From an endosymbiont of Galathealinum brachiosum (GTDB lineage Bacteria; Pseudomonadota; Gammaproteobacteria; SZUA-229), in assembly GCA_003349885.1 (NCBI GenBank), contig QFXC01000002.1, forward strand, positions 3,850 through 67,849: DNA of 64,000 nt, given 5' to 3'. This document shows, piece after piece, positions 28,799-64,000 of this stretch; position 1 is the stretch's first letter, and the number at the start of each line of letters is the position of its first letter. The position numbers and the translations under genes are program-made. The notes under the pieces were generated by a model that was not told the origin of the DNA, ran no database searches, and worked only from the letters and a program-made list of their open reading frames with translations.

Positions 28799-31000
28799 TT
28801 ATTTCTTCTTCCGCGGCGATAAACCCGTATGCTGGGTCAGAATTTTTTTACCCTTTCCTTTACTAGAATGGGGTCGGTGTTTATGCGCAGATGCAGAGTT
28901 TTTTCTGCGCGCGGCGGAGTAATCTTTATTAGACGCTGGCTGATCTTTTGGAATTAACTGCCGGTCTGCATCACCAATTAAATCGGCACGCCCCATTCGC
29001 TTGAGCGCCTCACGTAAGAGCGGCCAGTTTGCTGAATCGTGGTAACGCAAAAAAGCCTTATGTAATTTACGCTGCTCCGGGTCTTTAACACTCTCAACCG
29101 GTTCACTTTTATAACTAACACTACGTAACGGATTTTTACCTGTGTGATACATTGCCGTGGCCGTTGCCATAGGTGATGGATAAAATGCCTGCACCTGGTC
29201 TGCCTTAAAACCATTACGTTTTAACCACAACGCCAGGTTCATCATATCTTCATCGGTTGTGCCCGGGTGTGCCGCGATAAAATACGGAATCAAATACTGA
29301 TCTTTACCCGCCTGCTTCGTATATTTTTCAAACATACGTTTAAATTTATCGTAACTCCCCATGCCGGGTTTCATCATTTTCGATAATGGCCCGTCTTCTG
29401 AATGCTCGGGTGCAATTTTTAAACAACCACCCACATGGTGAGTAACTAACTCTTTCACATATTCCGGATCACGTATCGCCAGGTCATAACGCAAACCCGA
29501 TGCAATCAATACTTTTTTAACACCGGGCAAGTGACGTGCTTCTCGATAAATTTCCGTAAGTGCAGAATGATCGGTAATTAAGTTATGACAAATACCAGGG
29601 TAAACACAACTCGGTTTACGGCAAGCCGCTTCAATTTCGCGGGTTTTACAGGCAATACGATACATATTGGCCGTTGGCCCACCTAAATCTGAAATCACAC
29701 CGGTAAAACCCGGCACCTTGTCACGAATGTCTTCTATTTCATGAATAATAGATTCTTTAGAACGGTTTTGAACAATACGTCCTTCATGCTCGGTAATAGA
29801 GCAGAACGTGCAGCCACCAAAACAGCCACGCATTATGTTTATTGAAAAACGAATCATCTCGTAAGCAGGAATTTTTTCGCCCTGATATTGCGGGTGCGGC
29901 ACACGTGCAAATGGCATTGCAAACACATAATCCATTTCATCCATGGTGAGTGGAATGGGTGGTGAATTTAACCAGACATCAACCTTGCCATGTTTCTGCA
30001 CCAGCGCACGTGCATTGCCCGGGTTGGTTTCAAGGTGCAAAACACGATTGGCATGCGCATATAAAGACGCATCATTACTCACTTTTTCAAATGCAGGCAA
30101 ACGGATGACACTTTGACTGCGATCTAGTTTTATTTTCTTAAGCTCAACTTCCTCACCCTGCTCATTATACTGAGCACCATAAAAAGCATTATCACGGCGT
30201 TCACGTTCACAGTCGCTCATATCCTGCGTATTTATATATGGATTTACAATTTTATCTATTTTTCCCGGGCGATCGATGCGAGTAGAATCAATTTCCATCC
30301 AGCCTTCGGGGGTATCTCGTCGCACAAATGAGGTGCCGCGCACATCCGTAATCTGCTCAATACTCTCTCCCTGTGCAAGCCGATGGGCTACCTCAACAAT
30401 CGCCCGTTCCGCATTTCCGTATAACAACATGTCGGCGGTTGCATCCACCAGAATTGAGCGCCGCACTTTATCCTGCCAGTAATCATAATGCGCAATGCGA
30501 CGTAATGATGCTTCAATGCCACCCAGAATCACCGGCACGTCCGTCCAGGCCTCTTTGCAACGCTGCGCATACACAAGTGAAGAACGGTCAGGCCGTTTAC
30601 CACCGATATCACCAGGTGTATAAGCATCATCGTTACGAATTTTACGATCAGCCGTATAACGGTTAATCATCGAATCCATATTGCCCGCAGCCACACCAAA
30701 AAACAGATTAGGTTTGCCCAGCACTTCGAAAGCGTCTTTAGAGTCCCATTCAGGCTGTGAAATAATGCCAACACGAAAGCCCTGCCCTTCAAGCAGGCGG
30801 CCAATAATAGCCATGCCAAATGAGGGATGATCGACATAAGCATCCCCGGTAACAATTATAATGTCACATGAATCCCAGCCCAGTGCATCCATCTCAGCGC
30901 GGCTGGTTGGGAGAAAGTCGGCAGTGCCATAACACTCGGCCCAGTATTTTGGATAGTCGAACAGGGCTGTTCTGGCAACGGGGACGGAAATAGCGGACAT
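28799..31000 (-). CDS. ygiQ: YgiQ-family radical SAM protein (UPF0313)
   Basis: 733 aa; CFGGCTFCS radical SAM CxxxCxxC; N-terminal block collinear with E. coli YgiQ. Confidence 0.85.
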
Positions 31001-54953: not shown

Positions 54954-55385
54954 CTACTTATTAATAAATAACTGATTGATTTCATCAGATTTAAGAATAG
55001 CCGCTAATTTATACGCTTGCCCTGTTTCCTGAATCAATACTTCAGCAGGTATACCTAAGCCTTGATGTAACTTACGAATCATACTTAAACTTAATGGTCG
55101 TTTTCCATTAAGCACTTCTGATACTTTTGATGCAGAACCAAAATATTTAAGCATATCTTTTTGCTGCAACCCCTGCTGCTCCATACGAAATTTAATAGCT
55201 TCAAGAGGCACAGGTTTATCGACAGGAAACTGTTCACGCTCATAGTGTTCAATTAGCACTGACAACACTTCCAGCTCATTCTCTTCATTAGAACCAGATG
55301 CAGGATTCAAATGCATTAATGCCATCAATCGTTCAACAGCCAATTTATGCTCAGCTTTAGACTTAATTACTTTTAGAATAGACAT
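54954..55385 (-). CDS. higA: HigA antitoxin (E. coli YgjM type, C-terminal HTH)
   Basis: GSASKVSEVLNGKRPLSLSMIRKLHQGLGIPAEVLI parallels E. coli HigA GSKSMVSRVLSGKRKLTLEHAKKLATRFGISPALFI. Confidence 0.8.
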   Translation of the reverse strand: MSILKVIKSKAEHKLAVERLMALMHLNPASGSNEENELEVLSVLIEHYEREQFPVDKPVPLEAIKFRMEQQGLQQKDMLKYFGSASKVSEVLNGKRPLSLSMIRKLHQGLGIPAEVLIQETGQAYKLAAILKSDEINQLFINK

Positions 55386-55396
55386 TAACCATCTCC

Positions 55397-55681
55397 TTAA
55401 AACTTTTGCTTATCATACTCAGCATGCGTACCAACCCATTCAATAACGACGATTCCATTCTGATACCTCACTTTCACTACAAGGCGATAGTGATTACCTT
55501 TAATATTAAAAATTACCCGGTTATCTGCCAGAAAATCAGCGGAGTTATACCTGTTTTTAATATCCTGCGGTGTAACCCATTGAGCTCTGTTCGCCTCATC
55601 AAACCATGCGTCTAATGCGCCTTTGCCGTGATTATGCTTTTTTGAGAACTTATCAAGTATGTCACGTCCTATGACTCTCAT
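55397..55681 (-). CDS. higB: HigB toxin (RelE/ParE superfamily, E. coli YgjN type)
   Basis: NRVIFNIKGNHYRLVVKVRYQNGIVVIEWVGTHAEYD parallels E. coli HigB HYVFNVGGNELRVVAMVFFESQKCYIREVMTHKEYD; toxin-first order. Confidence 0.8.
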   Translation of the reverse strand: MRVIGRDILDKFSKKHNHGKGALDAWFDEANRAQWVTPQDIKNRYNSADFLADNRVIFNIKGNHYRLVVKVRYQNGIVVIEWVGTHAEYDKQKF

Positions 55682-55691
55682 ATAGATCTAC

Positions 55692-55735
55692 CTTCCCATT
55701 TTGGGAATTATACACTCATTTCCCAAAATGGGAAG
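55692..55735. promoter_or_regulatory. perfect 16-bp inverted repeat in higBA promoter (putative HigA operator)
   Basis: cttcccattttgggaa ... ttcccaaaatgggaag, 12-bp spacer, 11 bp upstream of higB start. Confidence 0.55.
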
Positions 55736-56870
55736 ATTAAATATAATTTATGTCCTTAGATTTAACTTATTTATAACCTCTAAGCTAACATATTGATATA
55801 TATGGATTATATTTCAAAGTTAGCGATATAAATCTTCAGCTTTAGCAAGTGAACCGTATATAAGCACCAGTACTATTTGCTCATTTACTGACGTAATGCT
55901 GCCTTAATTACATCTACAATGGCAAACGTTTTTCGAATCATATTTAACAACTCACTGTAGGAGTTATCTTCAGATGACGATACAAAAGCGATGCGAAGCG
56001 AGCCATGTAACTTACACAACACACACCGCTTAGTAACAACCATCACAACTCATAACAAACCCCAGTCTCTTTAACCTCCCCACTCCCATCACCACCAACA
56101 TCATCACGCACCAACTGCTGCTCAATAAACTCATCAAGCGCATCACCATGCACCAGATAAACCCCTTTACGAAGCCGATACAAAAACCGCGTGCGACTCA
56201 TTTCAACCCGCCCTGGCTCAATAGTTGAAGCCGGTAAAAATGAATTATTGTAATCAGTAGTCACATCAGAAAAATAAGCCTTAAACTGTTTAAGCGTAAC
56301 CACCACACCCCTGTCTTCAATAGAACCCAACTCCCCCTTAACCACCGCATCTAAAAACCGCTGCTTTAAAGTGATGATAAATCCTTATCAAATTTAATTA
56401 CCAAACTCACAACACACAACTCGCACCTAAACCCAACGCTTCACTACTCGTTCCCACGGTCCCCCTTGGTAACGCATACCAAACTCAAAGTACGATACAA
56501 ACCCAAAACATCATTCCTTCTCCTTACCACCCACCTGATTCATCTCAAAAATTCCACTAATAATTTCCCCCATCACCCACAAATAATTATCAACCTGCTC
56601 ATGAAACACATCAGGGTGAACATCATCACCACAACACACAGGTTTAAACACAGGCGGGTTATCAAGCAAATGAACAAGATGCCCCGTATAACGAATCAAG
56701 CGCACCTTATACTGAGTATCATTAAACCTGGTGGGTAAACCTTGCTCATCATCCACATCAAAAGAATGAAACCGCAACGGAATTTCAACCAGCTTAGCTG
56801 GCTTAGAAGAAGACTTTTCAAATTGATCATCACACATAAAAACACTCCCTATTAAAAGTTAACCATCTCT

Positions 56871-56947
56871 TGTAGGTGCTCCTTCAGGTGCACATCTTTT
56901 GTAGTTTCATAACCATTATGTTTAGTGCACCTAAAGGAGCACCTACA
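56871..56947. repeat. inverted pair of repeat D 23-mers forming a long hairpin
   Basis: tgtaggtgctccttcaggtgcac ...31 nt... gtgcacctaaaggagcacctaca. Confidence 0.6.
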
Positions 56948-57711
56948 AAGTAAAACGTCATACCTGCGAAGGCAGGTACCCAGCGACTTAAAATCAAATA
57001 TAAAAGGAAACCAGAACCCCAAACGAGGCTCCAGCAAGTTCAACCACCCATGACTAATACACACTGCCAAAACACAAAACCCACCCACAGCAAAACCTCA
57101 ACAACACACAATCTCGCAGTCGAATTAAAGCAGGCCTGATCAAAAAACGAACAATAACGCCCGTGGTTTCCAATAAACCGAACAGATAAAGTGAAATCAA
57201 AGAATAAAAGCGCCGAAACTCACCTGAGAATACAGAAAAATGCACAGGTAAAAACGCAGGGTGTGAAGAAAAATAACGGATTGCCGAAAAAAAACTACCG
57301 GCAATAGGGTGTCCTAGCTTAGAATGTGTCTCAGCCATATTCAACTCGTTATAGTTGGTTGTGGTTAGCAGGCTTTCGGTGTTACAGCACCTTGGGTCTG
57401 CGATTTTTTATTTTATAAAGTTAGTTAGCCGATAGATCTCTCCTGTTGTTTTCTGTAGTTATTAAAACCACATATATTAAAAATAGATAATGAAGCGCAC
57501 GTTGTTAATGCTCGCTTATTGAGTGTATGCAAGGTGGAAGATAGTTGTCAAATTAATATTTTATAGAACTACAGATGTGATTTTATACTTTTCAGACTAC
57601 TACTTAAAATCATTTATATTTATAAGCATTAAGAAAATAAACATGAAGCAACTAACGTACTACTTGAAGCTATCATGACCCTATATATTTATTTACTTAC
57701 ACTAAAACAGG

Positions 57712-57996
57712 TTAAGTTATATTATGACTTGAAGGCAATGAGACTTGATAACGAGAGCCAACTTTGAAATATTCAATACGCCCTTCATTAACTAACTTTT
57801 CCATCATTACCGACATCAACCAGCCTTTCTGACCATCTTCTGTAGGACTATAAGACAGCAAATCAAGACCAAGATCTTTTTTTAGAACAGCGGCTTTAAC
57901 TGAAGCTTGACCATCATTAGATTGCAATCTAATATAATCTATAATTACGTCACCAATAGAATTAAGATGATTTTCTATATTTTTCTTATGATTCAC
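57712..57996 (-). CDS. small hypothetical protein downstream of the 3-gene cassette
   Basis: ORF only; 188 bp downstream of the REC gene on the same strand. Confidence 0.3.
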   Translation of the reverse strand: MNHKKNIENHLNSIGDVIIDYIRLQSNDGQASVKAAVLKKDLGLDLLSYSPTEDGQKGWLMSVMMEKLVNEGRIEYFKVGSRYQVSLPSSHNIT

Positions 57997-58184
57997 TCAA
58001 CACCTTCCAATCCTCTTCATTCGATTTATACCATCCATTTATTACTTGCTATTTATAGAACAATGCTCAACACATCCTATTATTAGGAATAATTTCGTAC
58101 TGACAATTGATAATGGCATATTGAAATTTAAAACCATAATAATTTTCATTCTGAACTGCCTGATAAATTGTATTCTAATTAGAT

Positions 58185-59090
58185 TTAGTTTATAAACTTT
58201 TTAAAATCCGACTGAATTTTTAATAGCTGCATTCGAAGTCGCTTAAACTCATCAAAATTATATTCTTTTTCATCACCACCATGTGAATGCAGAATCAATT
58301 TACCTTCATCTGTTAGCTTAGCATGTTGATGTGCCAATTTATTCCTTTCTGATTGTGTTTTACATAAATTGGAACCTTCAGACAAAAACTCGTGCTGAGC
58401 CGATCCTTCTTCAAAGAGCTTTTTGAAGGCAACACGAATAACTTGAAATTCAGTCAAAAAAGGATCCTTAATTGCATCTTCTACACATGTTATTTTTTCA
58501 ACTTTTACGGATTGATTAAAAACTTTATCTTTTAATTTCTCCTTTATATATTCTAGGAGCTCAGACCGCTTAATAGGATCGAGTGCTGTACATGCCTTGT
58601 TAAAGGAATCTCTCATTTTTACATCTGTGTGACTCATAGATGACATAACCACACCACGGATATTATTAATATCTGATATTTTTTTTATATGATCTTCAAT
58701 TAAAGCCTCAACTTGATCATTAAATATTTCTCTATCAATAATAAAGACTCCATCAACCTTAGAATCATAAAGTTTTTTTCTAAGGACATTTTGCTTGGTT
58801 CCACTATAGAATATTAAGTCAGTGTAAATCTGTCTACGCAACTCCTTCGCTATAGTAAGCCCATCCTCACTATCACCGCCCAGATCATAGTCAAATATAA
58901 TTAAATCATAAGGATTATAATTAGATAATGTTGATGCAAGCTTTCGAATATCATCATAACTAATTTTTGTTTCTTTTTCTATTTCAGGAATAAACCCGTG
59001 AGAGGAGACAAAATCCTCAACATTAGAAACTGATTCTTTAACGTTTTCAAACTGATCTTCAAACCATAATATTTTATATGTTAATTTCAT
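58185..59090 (-). CDS. receiver (REC) domain protein with unrecognised ~180-aa C-terminal domain (cassette gene C)
   Basis: KILWFEDQ (acidic pair E11/D12), DLIIFDYDLGGD (candidate phospho-Asp D66/D68), IFYSGTK (S/T + K); overlaps upstream gene by 4 nt. Confidence 0.6.
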   Translation of the reverse strand: MKLTYKILWFEDQFENVKESVSNVEDFVSSHGFIPEIEKETKISYDDIRKLASTLSNYNPYDLIIFDYDLGGDSEDGLTIAKELRRQIYTDLIFYSGTKQNVLRKKLYDSKVDGVFIIDREIFNDQVEALIEDHIKKISDINNIRGVVMSSMSHTDVKMRDSFNKACTALDPIKRSELLEYIKEKLKDKVFNQSVKVEKITCVEDAIKDPFLTEFQVIRVAFKKLFEEGSAQHEFLSEGSNLCKTQSERNKLAHQHAKLTDEGKLILHSHGGDEKEYNFDEFKRLRMQLLKIQSDFKKFIN

Positions 59091-61462
59091 AATTTTTTTA
59101 CATTTATAGTTAACCCTAACCCTCTATCAGGTTGATTATCTGATAGAGATATTTCACCACCCATTTTTTCTAACTGTTTTCTTATATGATATAAACCCAA
59201 ACCAGAGCCTCTTGTGGTCGTATATCCTTTTTCAAATATTCTCTGTGGTTCGATTACTTTACTATCTAAACCGTTACCATTGTCAACCACTTCAATATTT
59301 AACACATTATTTAAAGCAGAAGAAATAATAAAATCAACCCTTGAAGCACGTGCTTTATTCGAATTATTCACAATATTATCAAGAATAACACCCAATTCTA
59401 TTGGTGTGAAATTTGTAACAAATCCTTTTGTATTATTAATAACATTTATATTAATACCATGGTGATATGATGTAGTTATTTTATCTAGATATTGTTCAAT
59501 ATGTTGACATATATCAGCATGTACTTTTTCTGAATCTAACTTATAGTTAGCTAAAGTAGCGAACCTAGAGGTGGTGATTATTTTTTCAATTAACACCAAT
59601 AGCTCATCAAGAATATCTCTAACTGTATCACTAGAAATTTCTTCAGTTTTATTTAAAGAGAAATACTTCCTAAAGGCATTTTTTAGTTTTTGTCTATTTT
59701 CAACAGCGTAAATGATAATTTGGTGCATAAAGCTCTCAAGCTGATCTTTATCACGTGATTCACTGGATGTTAAATATAAACTCCTCTTTTTCTCGTCTTC
59801 GTAAGCCGTGCTAATTTTTTCTTTTTCAGTCTCAGCAGCAACCCTTCCTTGGCGTTCAGAACTCTCTCTGTGTTCAGCCTTTATTCGCGCTTCAATTTCT
59901 TGCTCTGCTATCTTTAAAGCGTCATCTTTTTCTTTCTCTAATTTCTCATACTCTCTGCGTGCAGATGAAACAGCTTTTTTTAAATTCACATCATTTGAGT
60001 CTTTAGCAAGTGACTCTAAATTATTAATTGATTTTTCAAAATATACTGATTTTTCATTTAATACTGAAACTATATCTTTATTATATTCAAGAAGATCGAG
60101 GTTATCAGACTTTGAAAGACTTTCAATCAATTTGATGATTTTCGTTCTATTTTCATCAAGTCCAAGTCGCTCAGCAGTCTCATGTATTTTATCTAACTTA
60201 TCTTTCCAATTCACGCCCACCACATAGCTTTCGAAACGTCTAAGGCATTTATTTTTAACACACTCCTGCAATTGATCTGACGCGATAGTTTCTACCAAAC
60301 CTTTATCTCGACTAGAAGATTCTTTAAATTTGAATTCTTCTCCAGCAATATCAACTCGACCCAGTATATCTCGTGTACCTAGATAACGACTGTATCCTTG
60401 TTGTTTTCGAACATCGATTTTCCAATAATCATTACCTGGCTCACCAACAGGAAATACTCTAAAGCCATTACGAAACAAAAACAAAGAACCAAAACTAACT
60501 ACAGACAAAGCCATTTGTTTTTTAAATGTTAATTTTGCAGAATTATTCAAATAAAACAACTGACAATTAAAACCGCTATCTAACAATTCATCGTATTCAG
60601 GTATTTTTTCTCTAATTTTATATATCAACGTACCACGATCAATCAGATCACTGTAAAGCCAACCATCAGACTTAAGATAAACATGCAACCATGTAGTTTT
60701 TTCCCTTAAAGTTTCAAGAATGTAGTTTTTAACAATTCCATTTACTAATTCTGCCTGTCTATTTTTATTACCCAACTTCTTTTTTTCTTTTAAATCACCA
60801 CTTTCTTCCAAACTACTATGCAAGAAAACATCTAAGCTGTTGCCATCTTCACCAAATGGATTAATTAACTTAGTAAGATGTCTTTTAAGTGATAATAATT
60901 TTTTTCTGTCCCATGATTTTTTTTCTCTTAAATTTGAAATCTCTACTACTACACCACTACTAATAGCGTCAACTTCTTTAGGAAAATCAAAGTCTTCAGA
61001 TTCATTATGAAAAACAGCGATATCGCCAAATAACTCAGTAGAATCTTTTTCAAAACTCCCCCAGTCGACATCTAAAATATCAACATGATCCATACCCTTA
61101 GTTTTTGCCTGAATCCTAAGCTCACCACCTAATCTATCACATGAAAAACGACCTACTCCCTTGTTTCCAGCATATGTTCTATTTTTATCTTGATCCTCTG
61201 TCCCATCTCTTTTTGCTGAATAAGCTACAAAAAGCCATTTATTAGTAAAATCATCAAAATCCATTCCTTTACCATTATCAATCACATAAATTTTTTCGAC
61301 ATCTCTTCCATCGTATTTAAATACTATATCCACACGGCTAGCATTTGCATCAAATGAATTCTTTACCAACTCAAATATTGCAACGTAGTCATTAGTAATA
61401 AGATCACGTCCAATAACTGATTTTAAAGAAGAACTTACTTTAAAATTCAATAACTCTGTCAA
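59087..61462 (-). CDS. dual GHKL protein: N-terminal MORC-like HATPase_c_3 + coiled-coil + C-terminal histidine-kinase-type HATPase_c (cassette gene B)
   Basis: N-term: IFELVKNSFDANA (N-box), VIDNGKGMD (G1), SAKRDG..GNKGVGRFS (G2/G3); C-term: ILDNIVNNSNKA (N-box), VVDNGNGLD (G1), GSGLGLYHIRK (G2); central E/K/R-rich coiled coil with candidate His in LESFMHQIIIYAVEN. Confidence 0.7.
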   Translation of the reverse strand: MTELLNFKVSSSLKSVIGRDLITNDYVAIFELVKNSFDANASRVDIVFKYDGRDVEKIYVIDNGKGMDFDDFTNKWLFVAYSAKRDGTEDQDKNRTYAGNKGVGRFSCDRLGGELRIQAKTKGMDHVDILDVDWGSFEKDSTELFGDIAVFHNESEDFDFPKEVDAISSGVVVEISNLREKKSWDRKKLLSLKRHLTKLINPFGEDGNSLDVFLHSSLEESGDLKEKKKLGNKNRQAELVNGIVKNYILETLREKTTWLHVYLKSDGWLYSDLIDRGTLIYKIREKIPEYDELLDSGFNCQLFYLNNSAKLTFKKQMALSVVSFGSLFLFRNGFRVFPVGEPGNDYWKIDVRKQQGYSRYLGTRDILGRVDIAGEEFKFKESSSRDKGLVETIASDQLQECVKNKCLRRFESYVVGVNWKDKLDKIHETAERLGLDENRTKIIKLIESLSKSDNLDLLEYNKDIVSVLNEKSVYFEKSINNLESLAKDSNDVNLKKAVSSARREYEKLEKEKDDALKIAEQEIEARIKAEHRESSERQGRVAAETEKEKISTAYEDEKKRSLYLTSSESRDKDQLESFMHQIIIYAVENRQKLKNAFRKYFSLNKTEEISSDTVRDILDELLVLIEKIITTSRFATLANYKLDSEKVHADICQHIEQYLDKITTSYHHGININVINNTKGFVTNFTPIELGVILDNIVNNSNKARASRVDFIISSALNNVLNIEVVDNGNGLDSKVIEPQRIFEKGYTTTRGSGLGLYHIRKQLEKMGGEISLSDNQPDRGLGLTINVKKL

Positions 61463-61498
61463 CTTATATACTCCTTAGGTTTCTGTTTGGATTTTTCA

Positions 61499-63967
61499 TC
61501 ATTTAGTATTGTCTTTTTTAATAACTTCGAAAAATGGATTAGCACGTATAACTTGTCCATCCACACCAAGCGTCTTATACAAACACTCATGACATTCCAA
61601 AGATTTAATCGAATCAACAACATCTGAATTAACAGCCGTCAACCCTATACCTTCAAGCTCTTTTATCGTTACATTTGGTACTTTATGTACAAACCAGGTT
61701 AGAAGTGGCTCCAAATAATTCTCATGCGAAGTCTTAAAATGAGATAAGTACTGTGAAGCAAGCAATACTCCAACCCCAAACTCTCTACCCTGCAACAAAA
61801 TCTTTTTCAAAACATCAAATTCATATTGCATGATGTTATCAGCTTCATCAACAAGCAACATAGTATCAACAAATCTCAATTTAGGATCTTCACCAATAAA
61901 TGGCTTTTTCTCAATTCTAAGCATATGCTCATAAAACAAGTTCAAAAATATAACAACGAGCATATTCTTTGTTCTATCATCTTGCCCTATTTCTGATAAA
62001 TCGATGACTACTACACCTGTAAGAAACTCTGAAAATGGAATAACATCCTTACTATCTGATACAAAGTAACCACCATCTACTAGATCATCCATAATATTGT
62101 ATGGTGTATCTGGTGACTTAATTGCTTCTTTATAACAATCAAAAACGTCATTAATTGTTGGTGCTATTTTTCCATTAGCATTTGTTATTTCGTACGACTC
62201 TTTAACTGCAGCCTTTATGCGTGAACGCTGAACAGGCCCTATACCTGGATAAATTTTATCTAATACATCTATGAAGAATTTTGTTCTCTCAAGCCATGCC
62301 CTGCCTTTTTGAGAGCTATCTCGAATATCAAACAAATTTAACGGTATATCAAAAGGTGAAACTACTTTTGCACCTGTTGCTTTAACAAAGTCATCTTTTG
62401 AATAGTCTCGCTTGTAGTCAAATATTAATATATTTGGCCTTTTACCCCTATTCATATCAGGTTTAGCACCCATTTGTTGAACAAGCGCTTGGATTAACTG
62501 TGTTTTGCCTGTTCCTAAATCACCTACAATACCGACATTAAGCTGATTTAACGCTGTATTACCAGGAAAAAAGAACAATTCTTCATTAGTAAACTTATTT
62601 ACTGTTTCACCAACACTAAATTTAATACCTTCTGGTGATGGATCACTAGTAATTATTTCATCTTTATCTGTTTCTTTTGCCTTTTCAACTTCTGCTTCTA
62701 CTTTGGCTACAGAATCATCTACTAAGATTTCTTTTTCCGTGGGTTCACCCGTTTCTACTTCGGGCAATACTGTTGTCTCTACTTTTGTTTCTACATCAGG
62801 TGATATTTCTGGATTTGTTTTTGGTTCAGTCTTTGGCTTTATATCTAATGTATCTTTCGAGTCTAGCTCAGGTAATAGCTGCCAATTACCCATCTTAGAG
62901 TTTATAGATTTAGAAAAAGCACTATCACATCTAGCTAACACTGAAAAAGCTTCAGCATGTGTTAGATGCATGGTTTCATTAAAACCATCTTTATCTATAT
63001 CTTGTAGCGATTCATTCTCTGAGCTATCTATGACAATAAGCCTTCCTCGTGTATCTATATCTATATCCAATTCATTATTTGCAATTGATTTTAATATAGA
63101 TGAATGCTGCTGCGCCCATTCTTTCTGATTCATGAACTGTTCGAGCTGACCGTATACTCTAAAACCATAATCTAGCATGGTTGCTAGAAGATTACGCCAT
63201 GCGATACCCCACAAATCAAATTCTTTTGCTTTTGTTTGTATATCATGAAGAAATTCTGAAAAATGACTAGCCTGACACAAAGCTGCCTCTCGCTCATTAG
63301 GTGACATGGTGCCACCTCTTGCTTTAACTTCTACAGGCGTTATACGCATTTGAATTGGCTCACCTGAAACAAACTGCATACTCAAAACTAAAAGATCTGG
63401 ACGCTCACCATATTTAAAGCCTATAGCTGTGCGTAAATCATCGAAGTGTTTCTGGAATGGATCAGCAGAGATAATCAGGTTTAATGTATCATCATCCTTA
63501 ACTGGTAATAACCCTGTTGCTGTAGCACCCCGCTCAAAGTCAGATTGAAAAATACGAAGCGCAGTTAACATTCCAATTTCTCCAAGTGACATTGAGCCAC
63601 CTGCAGTTAAACGCTTTAGTGTTGGCATACCCCTACGTGATATTTCTTCTAATATTTCAGAAATTCTTTCATCAGTTAATTCACTATTCTCACCTAATAA
63701 TATAAGAGCTGATCTAACAGCTTGCAGCATTCCAGGTGATTCTTTTGCCAGTAGGTAATAACCACTATTCTCACCTGCACGACGCGCATATGATGGTAAC
63801 TCATAATCCCAAAGATAAGCCTTTTCTGTGGAACCAAAAAAACAGGCTGCATCAACATCTGTTGATGACAATGCTGTATAACGTGAACCGCCAACAACAT
63901 CTGCTAACTTAGCCATATCAGGTGCAAAAACATAACTGTCAAAATCTTCTTTACATTGACGCTCCAC
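61499..63967 (-). CDS. PD-(D/E)xK-like nuclease domain + low-complexity linker + HerA/FtsK-like P-loop ATPase (cassette gene A); N-terminus probably beyond window edge
   Basis: RPDLLVLS...ITPVEVKARGG (PD..E.K); linker KPKTEPKTNPEISPDVETKVETTVLPEVETGEPTEKE; Walker A GIVGDLGTGKTQL, HerA-like ILIFDYKRDY, Walker B MLLVDEADN; called start is GTG and frame stays open to position 64000. Confidence 0.65.
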   Translation of the reverse strand: MERQCKEDFDSYVFAPDMAKLADVVGGSRYTALSSTDVDAACFFGSTEKAYLWDYELPSYARRAGENSGYYLLAKESPGMLQAVRSALILLGENSELTDERISEILEEISRRGMPTLKRLTAGGSMSLGEIGMLTALRIFQSDFERGATATGLLPVKDDDTLNLIISADPFQKHFDDLRTAIGFKYGERPDLLVLSMQFVSGEPIQMRITPVEVKARGGTMSPNEREAALCQASHFSEFLHDIQTKAKEFDLWGIAWRNLLATMLDYGFRVYGQLEQFMNQKEWAQQHSSILKSIANNELDIDIDTRGRLIVIDSSENESLQDIDKDGFNETMHLTHAEAFSVLARCDSAFSKSINSKMGNWQLLPELDSKDTLDIKPKTEPKTNPEISPDVETKVETTVLPEVETGEPTEKEILVDDSVAKVEAEVEKAKETDKDEIITSDPSPEGIKFSVGETVNKFTNEELFFFPGNTALNQLNVGIVGDLGTGKTQLIQALVQQMGAKPDMNRGKRPNILIFDYKRDYSKDDFVKATGAKVVSPFDIPLNLFDIRDSSQKGRAWLERTKFFIDVLDKIYPGIGPVQRSRIKAAVKESYEITNANGKIAPTINDVFDCYKEAIKSPDTPYNIMDDLVDGGYFVSDSKDVIPFSEFLTGVVVIDLSEIGQDDRTKNMLVVIFLNLFYEHMLRIEKKPFIGEDPKLRFVDTMLLVDEADNIMQYEFDVLKKILLQGREFGVGVLLASQYLSHFKTSHENYLEPLLTWFVHKVPNVTIKELEGIGLTAVNSDVVDSIKSLECHECLYKTLGVDGQVIRANPFFEVIKKDNTK

Positions 63968-64000
63968 TTCATCAACACAACTTAATAATTTGCCTGTTAT

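What the first reader, a model, noticed from the sequence alone, without database searches (positions are those of the whole stretch)
58185..64000. Three-gene cassette: nuclease/HerA-like ATPase + tandem-GHKL histidine-kinase-like protein + REC-effector, a candidate undescribed signalling-type defence system
Three co-directional minus-strand genes are packed with a 36-bp gap and a 4-nt overlap. The three products are:
- A large protein (at least 822 aa) with a PD-(D/E)xK-like signature, a K/E/T/P low-complexity linker, and a HerA/FtsK-type P-loop domain (Walker A, the HerA-like FDYKRDY block after it, and a DEAD-like Walker B).
- A 791-aa protein with two Bergerat-fold ATPase domains: a MORC-like HATPase_c_3 at the N-terminus and a classical His-kinase HATPase_c at the C-terminus, separated by a coiled coil carrying a candidate phosphoacceptor His.
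- A 301-aa receiver-domain protein whose C-terminal half matches nothing I recognise and could be an effector.

The logic resembles two-component-based defence such as Detocs: sensor kinase, then receiver, then effector. The parts differ, however. There is no Hpt protein. The GHKL module is MORC-like. A nuclease is coupled to a HerA-like motor, as in the NurA/HerA, SIR2-HerA and DUF4297-HerA families. The cassette sits in an accessory neighbourhood next to higBA and a decayed, compositionally odd 2-kb region. I cannot match the architecture to a named system from memory.
Basis: partly seen in the sequence, partly recalled or inferred. Interest (0 to 1): 0.9.

Follow-up and report, generated by a model that had tools for sequence, protein, structure and literature searches.

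The report
Methylase-linked kinase-to-RNase defence pair beside DndH
The "three-gene cassette" is two things side by side: the tail end of a giant DndH-like restriction gene, and a widespread, apparently undescribed two-gene module (a MORC-like histidine kinase plus a receiver-HEPN RNase) that elsewhere almost always sits next to a cytosine DNA methylase, so it looks like a restriction-modification system that signals by phosphorylation and attacks RNA.

Summary

- **Gene A.** It is cut by the window edge. It corresponds to roughly the last 850 of about 1,850 residues of a DndH/DptH-like protein (REase plus HerA/FtsK ATPase). In 46 of 80 related loci that protein sits in an operon C5-methylase / ~710-aa protein / ~510-aa protein / DndH-like, often followed by Vsr.
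- **Genes B and C.** They form a separate conserved pair. In 80 metagenomic loci, C follows B in 67 of 70 assessable cases, and a C5 DNA methylase is directly adjacent in 69 of 80. A DndH-like gene is adjacent in only 3 of 80.
- **B.** MORC/MutL-like GHKL plus transducer, a coiled coil, then a DHp hairpin (invariant H580) and a histidine-kinase CA domain.
- **C.** A true receiver domain (invariant D67) plus an all-helical domain with an invariant R-N-x-L-A-H motif, best read as a HEPN RNase.

Most likely mechanism (inferred): B detects unmethylated DNA, autophosphorylates and passes the phosphate to C. This switches on RNA cleavage and causes growth arrest. The methylase marks self DNA.

No methylase lies in the window. 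It probably sits upstream with the rest of the DndH-like operon and may be shared by both modules. PADLOC has no model for C, and I found no paper describing the pair.

The parts
61499..64000 (-). Gene A fragment: the 3' 833 codons of a DndH/DptH-like gene. The frame is open to the window edge, and roughly 1,000 codons lie outside the window.
   Evidence: Frame open to base 64000. tblastn aligns it to residues 1003-1850 of the 1859-aa L011 protein at 59% identity. PADLOC DndH E 4e-80, profile positions 1108-1714 of 1715. Intact homologues are about 1,790-1,950 aa.
63101..63583 (-). PD-(D/E)xK (REase) core of gene A. Catalytic candidates: D202 (63395-63397), E224 (63329-63331), K226 (63323-63325).
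   Evidence: R200, D202, E224, K226 and R228 are invariant in 27 homologues. Codons verified. A REase domain before the ATPase is described for DndH in PMC10853773. The domain boundaries given here are my approximation.
62657..62845 (-). K/E/T/P-rich low-complexity linker of gene A (aa 386-448 of the 833-aa fragment).
   Evidence: Read directly from the translation.
61499..62600 (-). HerA/FtsK-type P-loop ATPase domain of gene A. Walker A GTGKT at 62501-62515, FDYKRDY at 62402-62422, Walker B VDEAD at 61838-61852.
   Evidence: Pfam TrwB_AAD_bind E 6e-6 and DUF87 E 1e-4. G498, K499 and T500 are invariant; D718 and E719 are nearly invariant. Coordinates verified.
61463..61498 (-). 36-bp A-B spacer with an AAGGAG ribosome-binding site 8 nt upstream of the TTG start of B. 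No terminator-like site was found.
59087..61462 (-). Gene B: 791-aa cytoplasmic MORC-like GHKL / histidine-kinase fusion.
   Evidence: 100% identical to an NCBI protein of the MAG 'endosymbiont of Galathealinum brachiosum'. More than 100 full-length homologues at 45-62% identity. AF2 mean pLDDT 79.
60083..61462 (-). N-terminal GHKL ATPase of B (aa 1-200; N-box E31/N35/D38, G1 D62-x-G64-x-G66, G2 G99/G102/G104) plus an alpha/beta transducer-like middle domain (aa 211-460).
59798..59989 (-). Long coiled-coil helix of B (aa 492-555) linking the MORC-like half to the kinase core.
   Evidence: AF2 secondary structure.
59543..59749 (-). DHp-like helical hairpin of B (aa 572-640). Candidate phospho-acceptor H580 at codon 59723-59725.
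59096..59524 (-). Histidine-kinase catalytic (CA) domain of B (aa 647-789). N-box E689/N696/N700, G1 D727-x-G729-x-G731, G2 G752/G754/G756.
   Evidence: Pfam HATPase_c E 7e-20. PDB profile hits to ZraS, WalK, HK853 and others at E 6e-11 to 3e-7. Motif residues invariant.
58185..59090 (-). Gene C: 301-aa receiver-HEPN protein. Its start overlaps the stop codon of B by 4 nt.
   Evidence: AF2 mean pLDDT 92.6.
58734..59090 (-). Receiver (REC) domain of C (aa 1-119). Acidic pair E11/D12, phospho-acceptor candidate D67 (58890-58892), S96, and a basic residue R120 in the place of the CheY lysine.
58188..58733 (-). All-helical C-terminal domain of C (aa 120-301), read as a HEPN RNase. R249-N-K-L-A-H254 (58329-58346) forms an Rx4H motif; R145, G146 and R286 are also conserved.
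   Evidence: R145, R249 and H254 are invariant in a 69-member set with 22% mean column identity. The only PDB sequence hit of the domain profile is the HEPN domain of Csm6 (6tug), E 0.11, aligning 'eRNkLAH' with 'lRNKVAH'. Besides receiver families, the families matched by three or more members are all HEPN: HEPN_Swt1 7 (best 2.6e-4), HEPN_RiboL-PSP 5, Abi_2 4; HEPN_Apea is matched by 2.

Best explanation
The region holds two methylation-linked restriction-type modules placed back to back.

**(1) Gene A.** It is the 3' part of a DndH/DptH-like giant (REase plus HerA/FtsK ATPase). The rest of the gene lies beyond base 64000. By analogy with related loci, its two partner genes and a C5 cytosine methylase probably lie there too.

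**(2) Genes B and C.** They form a self-contained two-component effector module that elsewhere is almost always coupled to a C5 DNA methylase.

**Proposed mechanism for B-C (inferred, not shown).**
1. The methylase marks host DNA.
2. B dimers use their MORC/MutL-like GHKL-transducer half as an ATP-driven DNA clamp or sensor.
3. Engagement with unmethylated (foreign) DNA is transmitted through the coiled coil to the DHp-CA kinase core.
4. The core autophosphorylates H580 and transfers the phosphoryl group to D67 of C.
5. Phosphorylated receiver domains dimerise and assemble the composite HEPN active site (R249/H254).
6. C then cleaves RNA, causing growth arrest or abortive infection.

Accessory genes seen in other loci fit this picture. 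Vsr and HhH-GPD would repair 5mC deamination damage. HAD-PNKP phosphatase would heal 3'-phosphate or cyclic-phosphate RNA ends, or reset the phospho-Asp.

**In this window.** B-C has no methylase of its own and follows the DndH-like gene after 36 bp with no terminator. It is therefore probably co-transcribed with that operon and relies on its methylase: one mark read by two effectors.
For: **Shown: anatomy.**
- B has an intact N-terminal GHKL domain and an intact kinase CA domain, joined by a coiled coil and a DHp hairpin.
- C is a REC domain plus an Rx4H helical domain.

**Shown: B-C linkage.**
- C lies directly downstream of B in 67 of 70 assessable metagenomic loci.
- The same order, with overlapping stop and start codons, is seen in Pectobacterium, Vibrio, Desulfonema and other genomes.

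**Shown: methylase linkage.**
- A PF00145 C5 methylase is adjacent in 69 of 80 B loci: 39 upstream co-directional, 27 convergent after C, 3 downstream co-directional. Only one locus with enough flank on both sides lacks it.
- Vsr is present in 20 of 80 loci, and HAD_PNKP (E 4e-30) in several.

**Shown: gene A family.**
- The operon methylase / cl2 / cl3 / DndH-like is complete in 46 of 80 loci, and Vsr is present in 28.
- Methylases next to B-C are up to 73% identical to methylases of DndH-type loci.
- The two modules are adjacent in 3+3 further loci, in several different arrangements. One is L061, with the order DndH-like / Vsr / B and a 10-bp gap. Another is L050, where the only C5 methylase detected by similarity to the reference set in the ~22-kb locus heads the DndH-like operon.

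**Shown: this window.**
- No C5 methylase is present.
- GC falls to 0.30-0.34 across the cassette, against 0.35-0.43 for most of the rest of the profiled region.

**Established knowledge.**
- HEPN domains are dimeric, metal-independent RNases with an Rx4-6H motif (PMC3710099).
- MORC/paraMORC GHKL proteins occur in RM operons together with DCM and Vsr (PMC2292703).
Against: - No biochemical or phage data exist for any family member.
- Pfam detects no HisKA domain. H580 lies about 22 residues before the hairpin loop, which by my recollection is further than in HisKA-type kinases.
- The conserved lysine of CheY is replaced by R/K one position later.
- Nothing shows that B binds DNA or reads methylation. 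Its similarity to the BbrUII/HgiDII enzymes covers only the ATPase domain.
- The methylase presumed upstream of the window was not seen.
- Gene A has no identical entry in the protein database although B and C do. It may therefore be annotated as a pseudogene in the source MAG.
Confidence: 0.55

Rival explanations
1. A, B and C are one obligate three-gene system. The DndH-like nuclease/motor would be the executioner, controlled by the kinase-receiver pair.
For: The three genes are co-directional with a 36-bp gap, a ribosome-binding site and no terminator. L061 has DndH-like / Vsr / B in one string with a 10-bp gap. The two modules are adjacent in 6 other loci, far more often than two rare systems should meet by chance.
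Against: B-C occurs without any DndH-like gene in 77 of 80 loci, and DndH-like occurs without B in 77 of 80. The nearest relatives of B have the order methylase-B-C. Where both modules occur, their arrangement varies between co-directional and convergent. C carries its own effector domain.
Confidence: 0.1
2. Guard model (PrrC-like). B-C does not read DNA. It monitors the methylase, the partner restriction complex, or a phage anti-restriction protein, and fires the RNase when that partner is inhibited.
For: The linkage to a methylase is tight, yet B has no recognisable DNA-recognition domain. There is a precedent in the RM-linked HEPN-type anticodon nuclease PrrC, held latent by EcoprrI (my own knowledge; HEPN families are reviewed in PMC3710099). 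HAD-PNKP in some loci recalls the tRNA-repair counter-measure.
Against: The MORC/MutL/SMCHD1-like module is typically a DNA-acting clamp. Most loci contain only methylase + B + C, so there is no restriction complex to guard.
Confidence: 0.15
3. B-C is a regulatory two-component pair and not an immune effector. It might control methylase expression or epigenetic switching, or C might process cyclic-phosphate ends as proposed for cRec domains.
For: C's receiver gives weak cREC_REC hits in 52 of 65 close homologues. cRec domains are proposed to be phosphoesterases (PMC7824862). HAD-PNKP is a neighbour in some loci.
Against: cREC scores are below the Pfam threshold (19 versus 27 bits). cRec is defined as never occurring with histidine kinases, whereas here a kinase is always adjacent. 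The broader family matches classical Response_reg (51 of 69, E 2.7e-10). C has no DNA-binding output domain. The loci sit in mobile or defence contexts with integrases, Tn3, AbiEii, MmeI-type RM and BrxC/D.
Confidence: 0.1
4. B-C is a conventional ATP-dependent restriction enzyme in two subunits. C's helical domain would cut DNA or be non-catalytic, and the second GHKL of B would be a structural or ATPase domain with no phosphotransfer.
For: The operon logic is classic RM: methylase first, overlapping genes, Vsr. B's N-terminus is related to the BbrUII/HgiDII REase family.
Against: Neither B nor C has any recognisable DNase motif. The DHp hairpin with an invariant His, plus an intact REC acidic pocket, are hard to explain without phosphotransfer. 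Rx4H is an RNase signature.
Confidence: 0.1

Closest known systems
DndFGH / DptFGH restriction module (DndH subunit)
   Same: Gene A has the C-terminal REase + HerA/FtsK-type ATPase arrangement described for DndH (PMC10853773). It matches seven PADLOC DndH profiles, with E down to 4e-80. Its homologues are giants of about 1,800 aa, each preceded by two large partner genes.
   Different: Only the last ~600 profile positions align. NCBIfam returned no DptH-named model among its hits. The partner genes have no Pfam domains and no PADLOC or NCBIfam DptF/DptG hits; the only match is SspF at E 2.6e-4. The operon carries a C5 methylase and Vsr; the conserved-neighbour analysis recovered nothing else recurrent.
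Detocs (two-component-based anti-phage system)
   Same: The logic is the same: a kinase senses infection, a receiver domain is phosphorylated, and a fused effector domain is unleashed.
   Different: There is no Hpt buffer protein and no receiver on the kinase. The sensor is a MORC-like GHKL rather than TPR. The effector is HEPN rather than PNP. The system is coupled to a DNA methylase. Neither B nor C matched any PADLOC model other than REase_II and MzaB. The Detocs features are from my own knowledge.
MORC / paraMORC GHKL ATPases of restriction-modification operons (Iyer, Abhiman, Aravind 2008; PMC2292703)
   Same: An N-terminal GHKL plus transducer module, with operon association to cytosine methylases and Vsr.
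   Different: The described paraMORC1-5 families carry REase, TIR or unknown C-terminal domains and work with helicases or nucleases. None has a DHp-CA kinase core or a receiver partner.
RM-linked or signal-activated HEPN RNases (PrrC with EcoprrI; Csm6/Csx1 of type III CRISPR)
   Same: A latent HEPN RNase acts as a second-line or abortive effector and is switched on by a sensor. C's Rx4H motif aligns with the catalytic motif of Csm6.
   Different: Activation here would be by Asp phosphorylation of a fused receiver. PrrC is activated by a peptide/GTP switch and Csm6 by cyclic oligoadenylate binding to a CARF domain.
BbrUII/HgiDII family type II restriction enzymes
   Same: A homologous N-terminal HATPase_c_3 domain (NCBIfam E 6e-19) and pairing with a C5 methylase.
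   Different: The score of 68 bits is far below the family cut-off of 550. Only 184 of 659 profile positions align. The nuclease part is absent.

Membership tests
DndFGH/DptFGH (gene A as DndH) | Full-length match to DndH/DptH models | tested here: not met
   PADLOC DndH profiles match only positions ~1108-1715, both for the window fragment and for the full-length 1798-aa homologue L009. NCBIfam returned no DptH-named model.
DndFGH/DptFGH (gene A as DndH) | C-terminal REase domain followed by a HerA/FtsK ATPase | tested here: met
   Invariant D202, E224 and K226, then Walker A/B with DUF87 and TrwB hits. The architecture is as described in PMC10853773.
DndFGH/DptFGH (gene A as DndH) | Partner genes DndF and DndG upstream | tested here: inconclusive
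   The upstream region is outside the window. Homologous loci have two conserved upstream genes (~710 and ~510 aa), but these give no DptF/DptG hits; the only match is SspF at E 2.6e-4.
Classical two-component system (B as histidine kinase, C as response regulator) | DHp hairpin with a conserved His, plus a CA domain with N, G1 and G2 boxes | tested here: met
Classical two-component system (B as histidine kinase, C as response regulator) | Receiver domain with an acidic pocket and a phospho-acceptor Asp | tested here: met
Classical two-component system (B as histidine kinase, C as response regulator) | His-to-Asp phosphotransfer actually occurs | not testable with these tools
   Needs [gamma-32P]ATP autophosphorylation and transfer assays.
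Detocs | Three genes: hybrid kinase DtcA, Hpt protein DtcB, receiver-PNP effector DtcC | tested here: not met
   There is no third small gene between or after B and C in the window or in 80 loci. The effector is HEPN-like. PADLOC returned only REase_II and MzaB for B and nothing for C.
HEPN superfamily (C-terminal domain of C) | Rx4-6H motif in an all-alpha domain | tested here: met
   R249-N-K-L-A-H254 is invariant across 69 divergent members. AF2 shows a mainly helical domain, eight helices plus a short three-stranded insert.
HEPN superfamily (C-terminal domain of C) | Statistically significant sequence or fold match to a known HEPN family | tested here: inconclusive
   The only PDB hit is the Csm6 HEPN domain at E 0.11. 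Pfam HEPN_Swt1, RiboL-PSP, Abi_2 and Apea hits recur but are weak, best 1.9e-4 and 2.6e-4. A fold search of the isolated domain was not possible.
MORC/paraMORC RM-associated GHKL ATPases | GHKL + S5-like transducer, in operons with DNA methylase and Vsr | tested here: met
cRec (cyclic-phosphate-processing receiver) | Pfam PF20274 above threshold, and never associated with histidine kinases | tested here: not met
   19.2 bits against a gathering score of 27. A histidine-kinase-like gene is always adjacent. The definition is from PMC7824862.

The most novel reading that the evidence does not exclude
Methylase-B-C would be a new class of restriction-modification-like immunity. In it, DNA methylation status is read by a MORC-like ATPase fused to a histidine-kinase core. 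The output is a His-to-Asp phosphorelay that activates a HEPN RNase (abortive infection), not DNA cleavage. The same C5-methylation mark can also be shared with a second, DndH-like DNA-targeting module in one operon, as in this window. That would give a two-tier system: cut the invader's DNA, and if that fails, shut down the cell's RNA.
Probability: 0.35. Interest if true: 0.85.

Novelty: new variant of a known kind. Interest (0 to 1): 0.66.

Why it matters
Only one two-component-based anti-phage system (Detocs) has been characterised, as far as I know. RM systems are thought of as DNA cutters.

A widespread module would link epigenetic self-marking to bacterial phosphorelay signalling and RNA-level abortive infection. 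The C-type domain alone has 575 clusters at 50% identity with E <= 1e-10. More than 500 B loci matched in a capped metagenome scan. The family occurs in Vibrio, Pectobacterium, Serratia, Photobacterium, Desulfonema and symbionts.

It would also give a prokaryotic example of a MORC-like ATPase acting as a signalling sensor, which bears on how eukaryotic MORC and SMCHD1 read chromatin state.

The recurrent docking of B-C and the DndH-like operon around closely related methylases suggests that restriction modules are exchanged, or stacked, on a common methylase-Vsr core.

Culturable hosts carry the system, so it is directly testable.

Tried and rejected
- **Source contig not recovered.** Exact-product look-ups for B, C and P0001 found nothing. 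The genome-contig scan returned relatives only, best 59% identity. The ~3 kb of gene A and everything upstream therefore remain unseen.
- **Vsr-like hit in the window.** A weak tblastn hit at 30308-30643 lies inside a radical-SAM (YgiQ-like) gene and was dismissed as chance.
- **Rfam scan of 55000-64000.** Only sub-threshold hairpin matches.
- **Other collections.** No close full-length homologue of B in plasmids or phages; only paralogues sharing the N-terminal ~400 aa at 24-29% identity. No match in complete E. coli genomes at the DNA level.
- **Literature.** A search for 'DptH' alone returned noise. The HEPN superfamily paper, the MORC paper and the CoCoNuT paper do not describe a kinase / receiver-HEPN pair. 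The DefensePredictor paper (PMC13092281) lists a predicted, unvalidated system with HATPase and REC domains in a figure legend. I could not tell whether it is this one.
- **Families rejected.** Detocs, cRec and a BbrUII-type REase were all considered and rejected; see the membership tests.

Full report
**1. Observation**

The three minus-strand ORFs exist as described:
- C: 58185-59090, 301 aa.
- B: 59087-61462, 791 aa, TTG start.
- A: from 61499 upward.

B and C overlap by 4 nt. A and B are separated by 36 bp containing AAGGAG 8 nt upstream of the TTG. The consensus scan found no terminator-like site between the genes.

The reading frame of A is still open at base 64000, so the window cuts the gene. 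GC content falls to 0.30-0.34 over the cassette, against 0.35-0.43 for most of the rest of the profiled region. B and C are 100% identical to proteins of the MAG 'endosymbiont of Galathealinum brachiosum'. No identical protein exists for A; the best hit is 70%. A may therefore be annotated as a pseudogene there. I could not check this.

**2. Gene A is the tail of a DndH-like giant**

- PADLOC matches seven DndH profiles, with E down to 4e-80. Only profile positions ~1108-1715 align.
- The window fragment aligns to residues 1003-1850 of an 1859-aa protein.
- An alignment of 27 homologues shows invariant R200/D202 ... E224-x-K226 (PD-(D/E)xK) and a HerA/FtsK-type P-loop (GTGKT, FDYKRDY, VDEAD).
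- This is the REase + HerA/FtsK C-terminal architecture published for DndH (PMC10853773).

I fetched 80 genomic loci encoding relatives and clustered their ORFs. The DndH-like ORF is about 1,790-1,950 aa when intact. It sits in a conserved string:

C5 methylase (51/80) / ~710-aa protein (57/80) / ~510-aa protein (51/80) / DndH-like, often followed by Vsr (28/80).

All four core genes are present in 46 of 80 loci, and many of the other loci are truncated contigs. The two partner proteins have no Pfam, NCBIfam or PADLOC identity apart from a weak SspF hit at 2.6e-4. The closest full-length relative (56% identity) shows the same context with a convergent methylase.

Gene A therefore belongs to a divergent DndFGH-like restriction module whose recurrent neighbours are a C5 methylase and Vsr. 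The conserved-neighbour clustering recovered no other recurrent gene, and most of that module lies outside the window.

**3. Genes B and C form an independent, conserved pair tied to a C5 methylase**

Seven look-ups of full-length B homologues all gave the order PF00145 methylase / B / ~297-300-aa protein, then Vsr, HAD_PNKP or nothing. The hosts were Pectobacterium, Vibrio tubiashii, Desulfonema limicola, an unnamed 1-Mb contig, and the two closest relatives of B at 62% and 56% identity. One cassette is bracketed by integrase genes next to a Tn3 transposase.

In the best 80 loci:
- C is directly downstream and co-directional in 67 of 70 loci with enough flank.
- A C5 methylase is directly adjacent in 69 of 80: 39 upstream, 27 convergent after C, 3 downstream co-directional.
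- Only one locus with room on both sides lacks an adjacent methylase.
- Vsr is present in 20 loci.
- A DndH-like gene is adjacent in 3.

The constant third gene is a methylase, and none is present in the 64-kb window.

**4. What B is**

- *N-terminal ATPase.* Pfam finds HATPase_c_3 (aa 27-143). All Bergerat motifs are invariant in 59 homologues.
- *Kinase domain.* Pfam finds HATPase_c (aa 688-786), also with invariant motifs.
- *Overall layout.* The AF2 model (pLDDT 79) shows GHKL (1-200), an alpha/beta middle domain (211-460), a 64-residue helix (492-555), a two-helix hairpin (572-640) and the CA domain (647-789).
- *Candidate phospho-acceptor.* H580 is the only invariant histidine in the hairpin segment. 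Its role is inferred.
- *Relation to restriction enzymes.* The N-terminal ATPase is related to that of the BbrUII/HgiDII restriction enzymes (E 6e-19), but only over 184 of 659 positions.

The published paraMORC families of RM operons also associate with DCM and Vsr, but none carries a kinase core (PMC2292703).

**5. What C is**

The AF2 model is confident (pLDDT 92.6).

- *Broader family.* Found with a profile of the C-terminal domain, it has 1039 cluster representatives at E <= 1e-3 and 575 at E <= 1e-10. Almost all are ~300 aa with the domain at ~115-300. Of 69 sampled members, 51 match classical Response_reg, best E 2.7e-10.
- *cREC hit.* The match on the window protein is below threshold (19 versus 27 bits). 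cRec is defined as never occurring with kinases (PMC7824862). C is therefore not a cRec.
- *Residues 120-301* are mainly helical, with a short three-stranded insert.
  - R145, R249 and H254 are invariant across the divergent set. R249-N-x-L-A-H254 is an Rx4H HEPN motif.
  - The only PDB sequence hit of the domain profile is the HEPN domain of Csm6, E 0.11, with the catalytic motifs aligned.
  - Besides receiver families, every Pfam family matched by three or more members is a HEPN family: Swt1, RiboL-PSP and Abi_2; Apea is matched by two.

I read this domain as a HEPN RNase with moderate confidence. No single score is significant after multiple testing, but the evidence converges.

**6. Mechanism (inferred)**

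The methylase marks self DNA. B's MORC-like half engages unmethylated DNA in an ATP-dependent way, and the coiled coil couples this to the kinase core. The steps are then H580~P, transfer to D67~P, receiver-driven dimerisation of C, assembly of the HEPN active site, RNA cleavage, and dormancy or abortive infection.

Vsr and HhH-GPD are ordinary companions of C5 methylases. HAD-PNKP (E 4e-30) suggests healing of 3'-phosphate or cyclic-phosphate RNA ends, or dephosphorylation of C.

*Shown:* the domain anatomy, the residue conservation and the gene linkage.

*Not shown:* DNA binding, methylation sensing, phosphotransfer, RNase activity and defence.

**7. Why the two modules are neighbours here**

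Adjacency recurs in several arrangements:
- Window: A / B / C.
- L061: DndH-like / Vsr / B (10-bp gap) / decayed C, then a convergent methylase.
- L050: methylase ... DndH-like / Vsr, convergent with B / C. No other C5 methylase was detected in that locus.
- L018: DndH-like ... B-like / REC protein / PNKP.
- L130, L131, L138: B / C, convergent with methylase / Vsr / DndH-like.

Methylases next to B-C are up to 73% identical to methylases of DndH-type loci.

The simplest reading is that both modules read the same kind of C5 mark, and that they are stacked or exchanged on a shared methylase-Vsr core. In the window, B-C would then depend on the methylase of the upstream operon.

**8. Comparison with known systems, and novelty**

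- Gene A is a new member or variant of the DndH family, whose architecture is already described.
- B-C with its methylase is not Detocs. It has no Hpt, a different sensor and a different effector. PADLOC returned only REase_II and MzaB for B and nothing for C.
- It is not one of the described paraMORC families, not a cRec system and not a BbrUII-type enzyme.
- I found no paper describing a kinase / receiver-HEPN pair.
- A 2026 machine-learning survey shows an unvalidated predicted system with HATPase and REC domains. That may or may not be this one.

I rate B-C as a new variant of known kinds (RM logic + two-component signalling + HEPN abortive effector). Its interest is moderate to high because it is widespread, coherent and directly testable.

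**9. Caveats**

- The mechanism is entirely inferred.
- The HEPN call is not statistically decisive.
- The upstream half of the story lies outside the window.
- The literature library is incomplete.

Noticed in passing
window 54954-55735: A higB (HigB_toxin, E 7e-31) and higA (HTH_3) pair lies on the minus strand. A perfect 16-nt inverted repeat (55692-55707 / 55720-55735) sits just upstream and is a likely operator.
   Followed up: partly
window 55700-57700: About 2 kb with only short ORFs that have no family hits, strong GC skew (down to -0.42) and AT skew. It contains a 24-nt-arm hairpin (56870-56948, 96% complementary). Rfam gave only sub-threshold matches. The nature of this stretch is unexplained.
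   Followed up: partly
window 57712-57996 (-): A 94-aa ORF lies 188 bp downstream of C on the same strand and has no Pfam hit. In other loci this position holds Vsr, HAD-PNKP or HhH-GPD. Whether the ORF is a real gene or linked to B-C was not tested.
   Followed up: no
L171 6304-13240 (also L172): The methylase / B / C / HAD-PNKP cassette is bracketed by two Phage_integrase genes and lies next to a Tn3-family transposase. This suggests the module moves as a mobile cassette.
   Followed up: no
L009, L011, L050, L066, L088, L089 (upstream of the DndH-like gene): The two conserved partner proteins of the DndH-like gene (~710 and ~510 aa) have no Pfam, NCBIfam or PADLOC identity apart from SspF at E 2.6e-4. 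The operon C5-methylase / these two / DndH-like / Vsr may itself be an undescribed methylation-coupled relative of DndFGH.
   Followed up: partly
plasmid hits H3-H15, e.g. NZ_CP095070.1 52333-53463: Many plasmid genes annotated 'sensor histidine kinase' or 'ATP-binding protein' share only B's N-terminal ~400 aa (24-29% identity). One lies next to an N-6 DNA methylase. This hints at a wider superfamily of MORC-like kinases coupled to other methylase types.
   Followed up: no
window 28799-31000 (-): A 733-aa radical-SAM protein (Radical_SAM_N E 4e-134, DUF3362), of YgiQ type. A weak Vsr-like tblastn hit inside it (30308-30643) is a chance match.
   Followed up: yes
L061 4695-5249: In the Sphingomonas locus that has the order DndH-like / Vsr / B, the C homologue aligns over only ~195 aa and no intact C ORF was called there; only short unrelated ORFs (71 and 80 aa) overlap the region. 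The effector gene appears decayed there.
   Followed up: no
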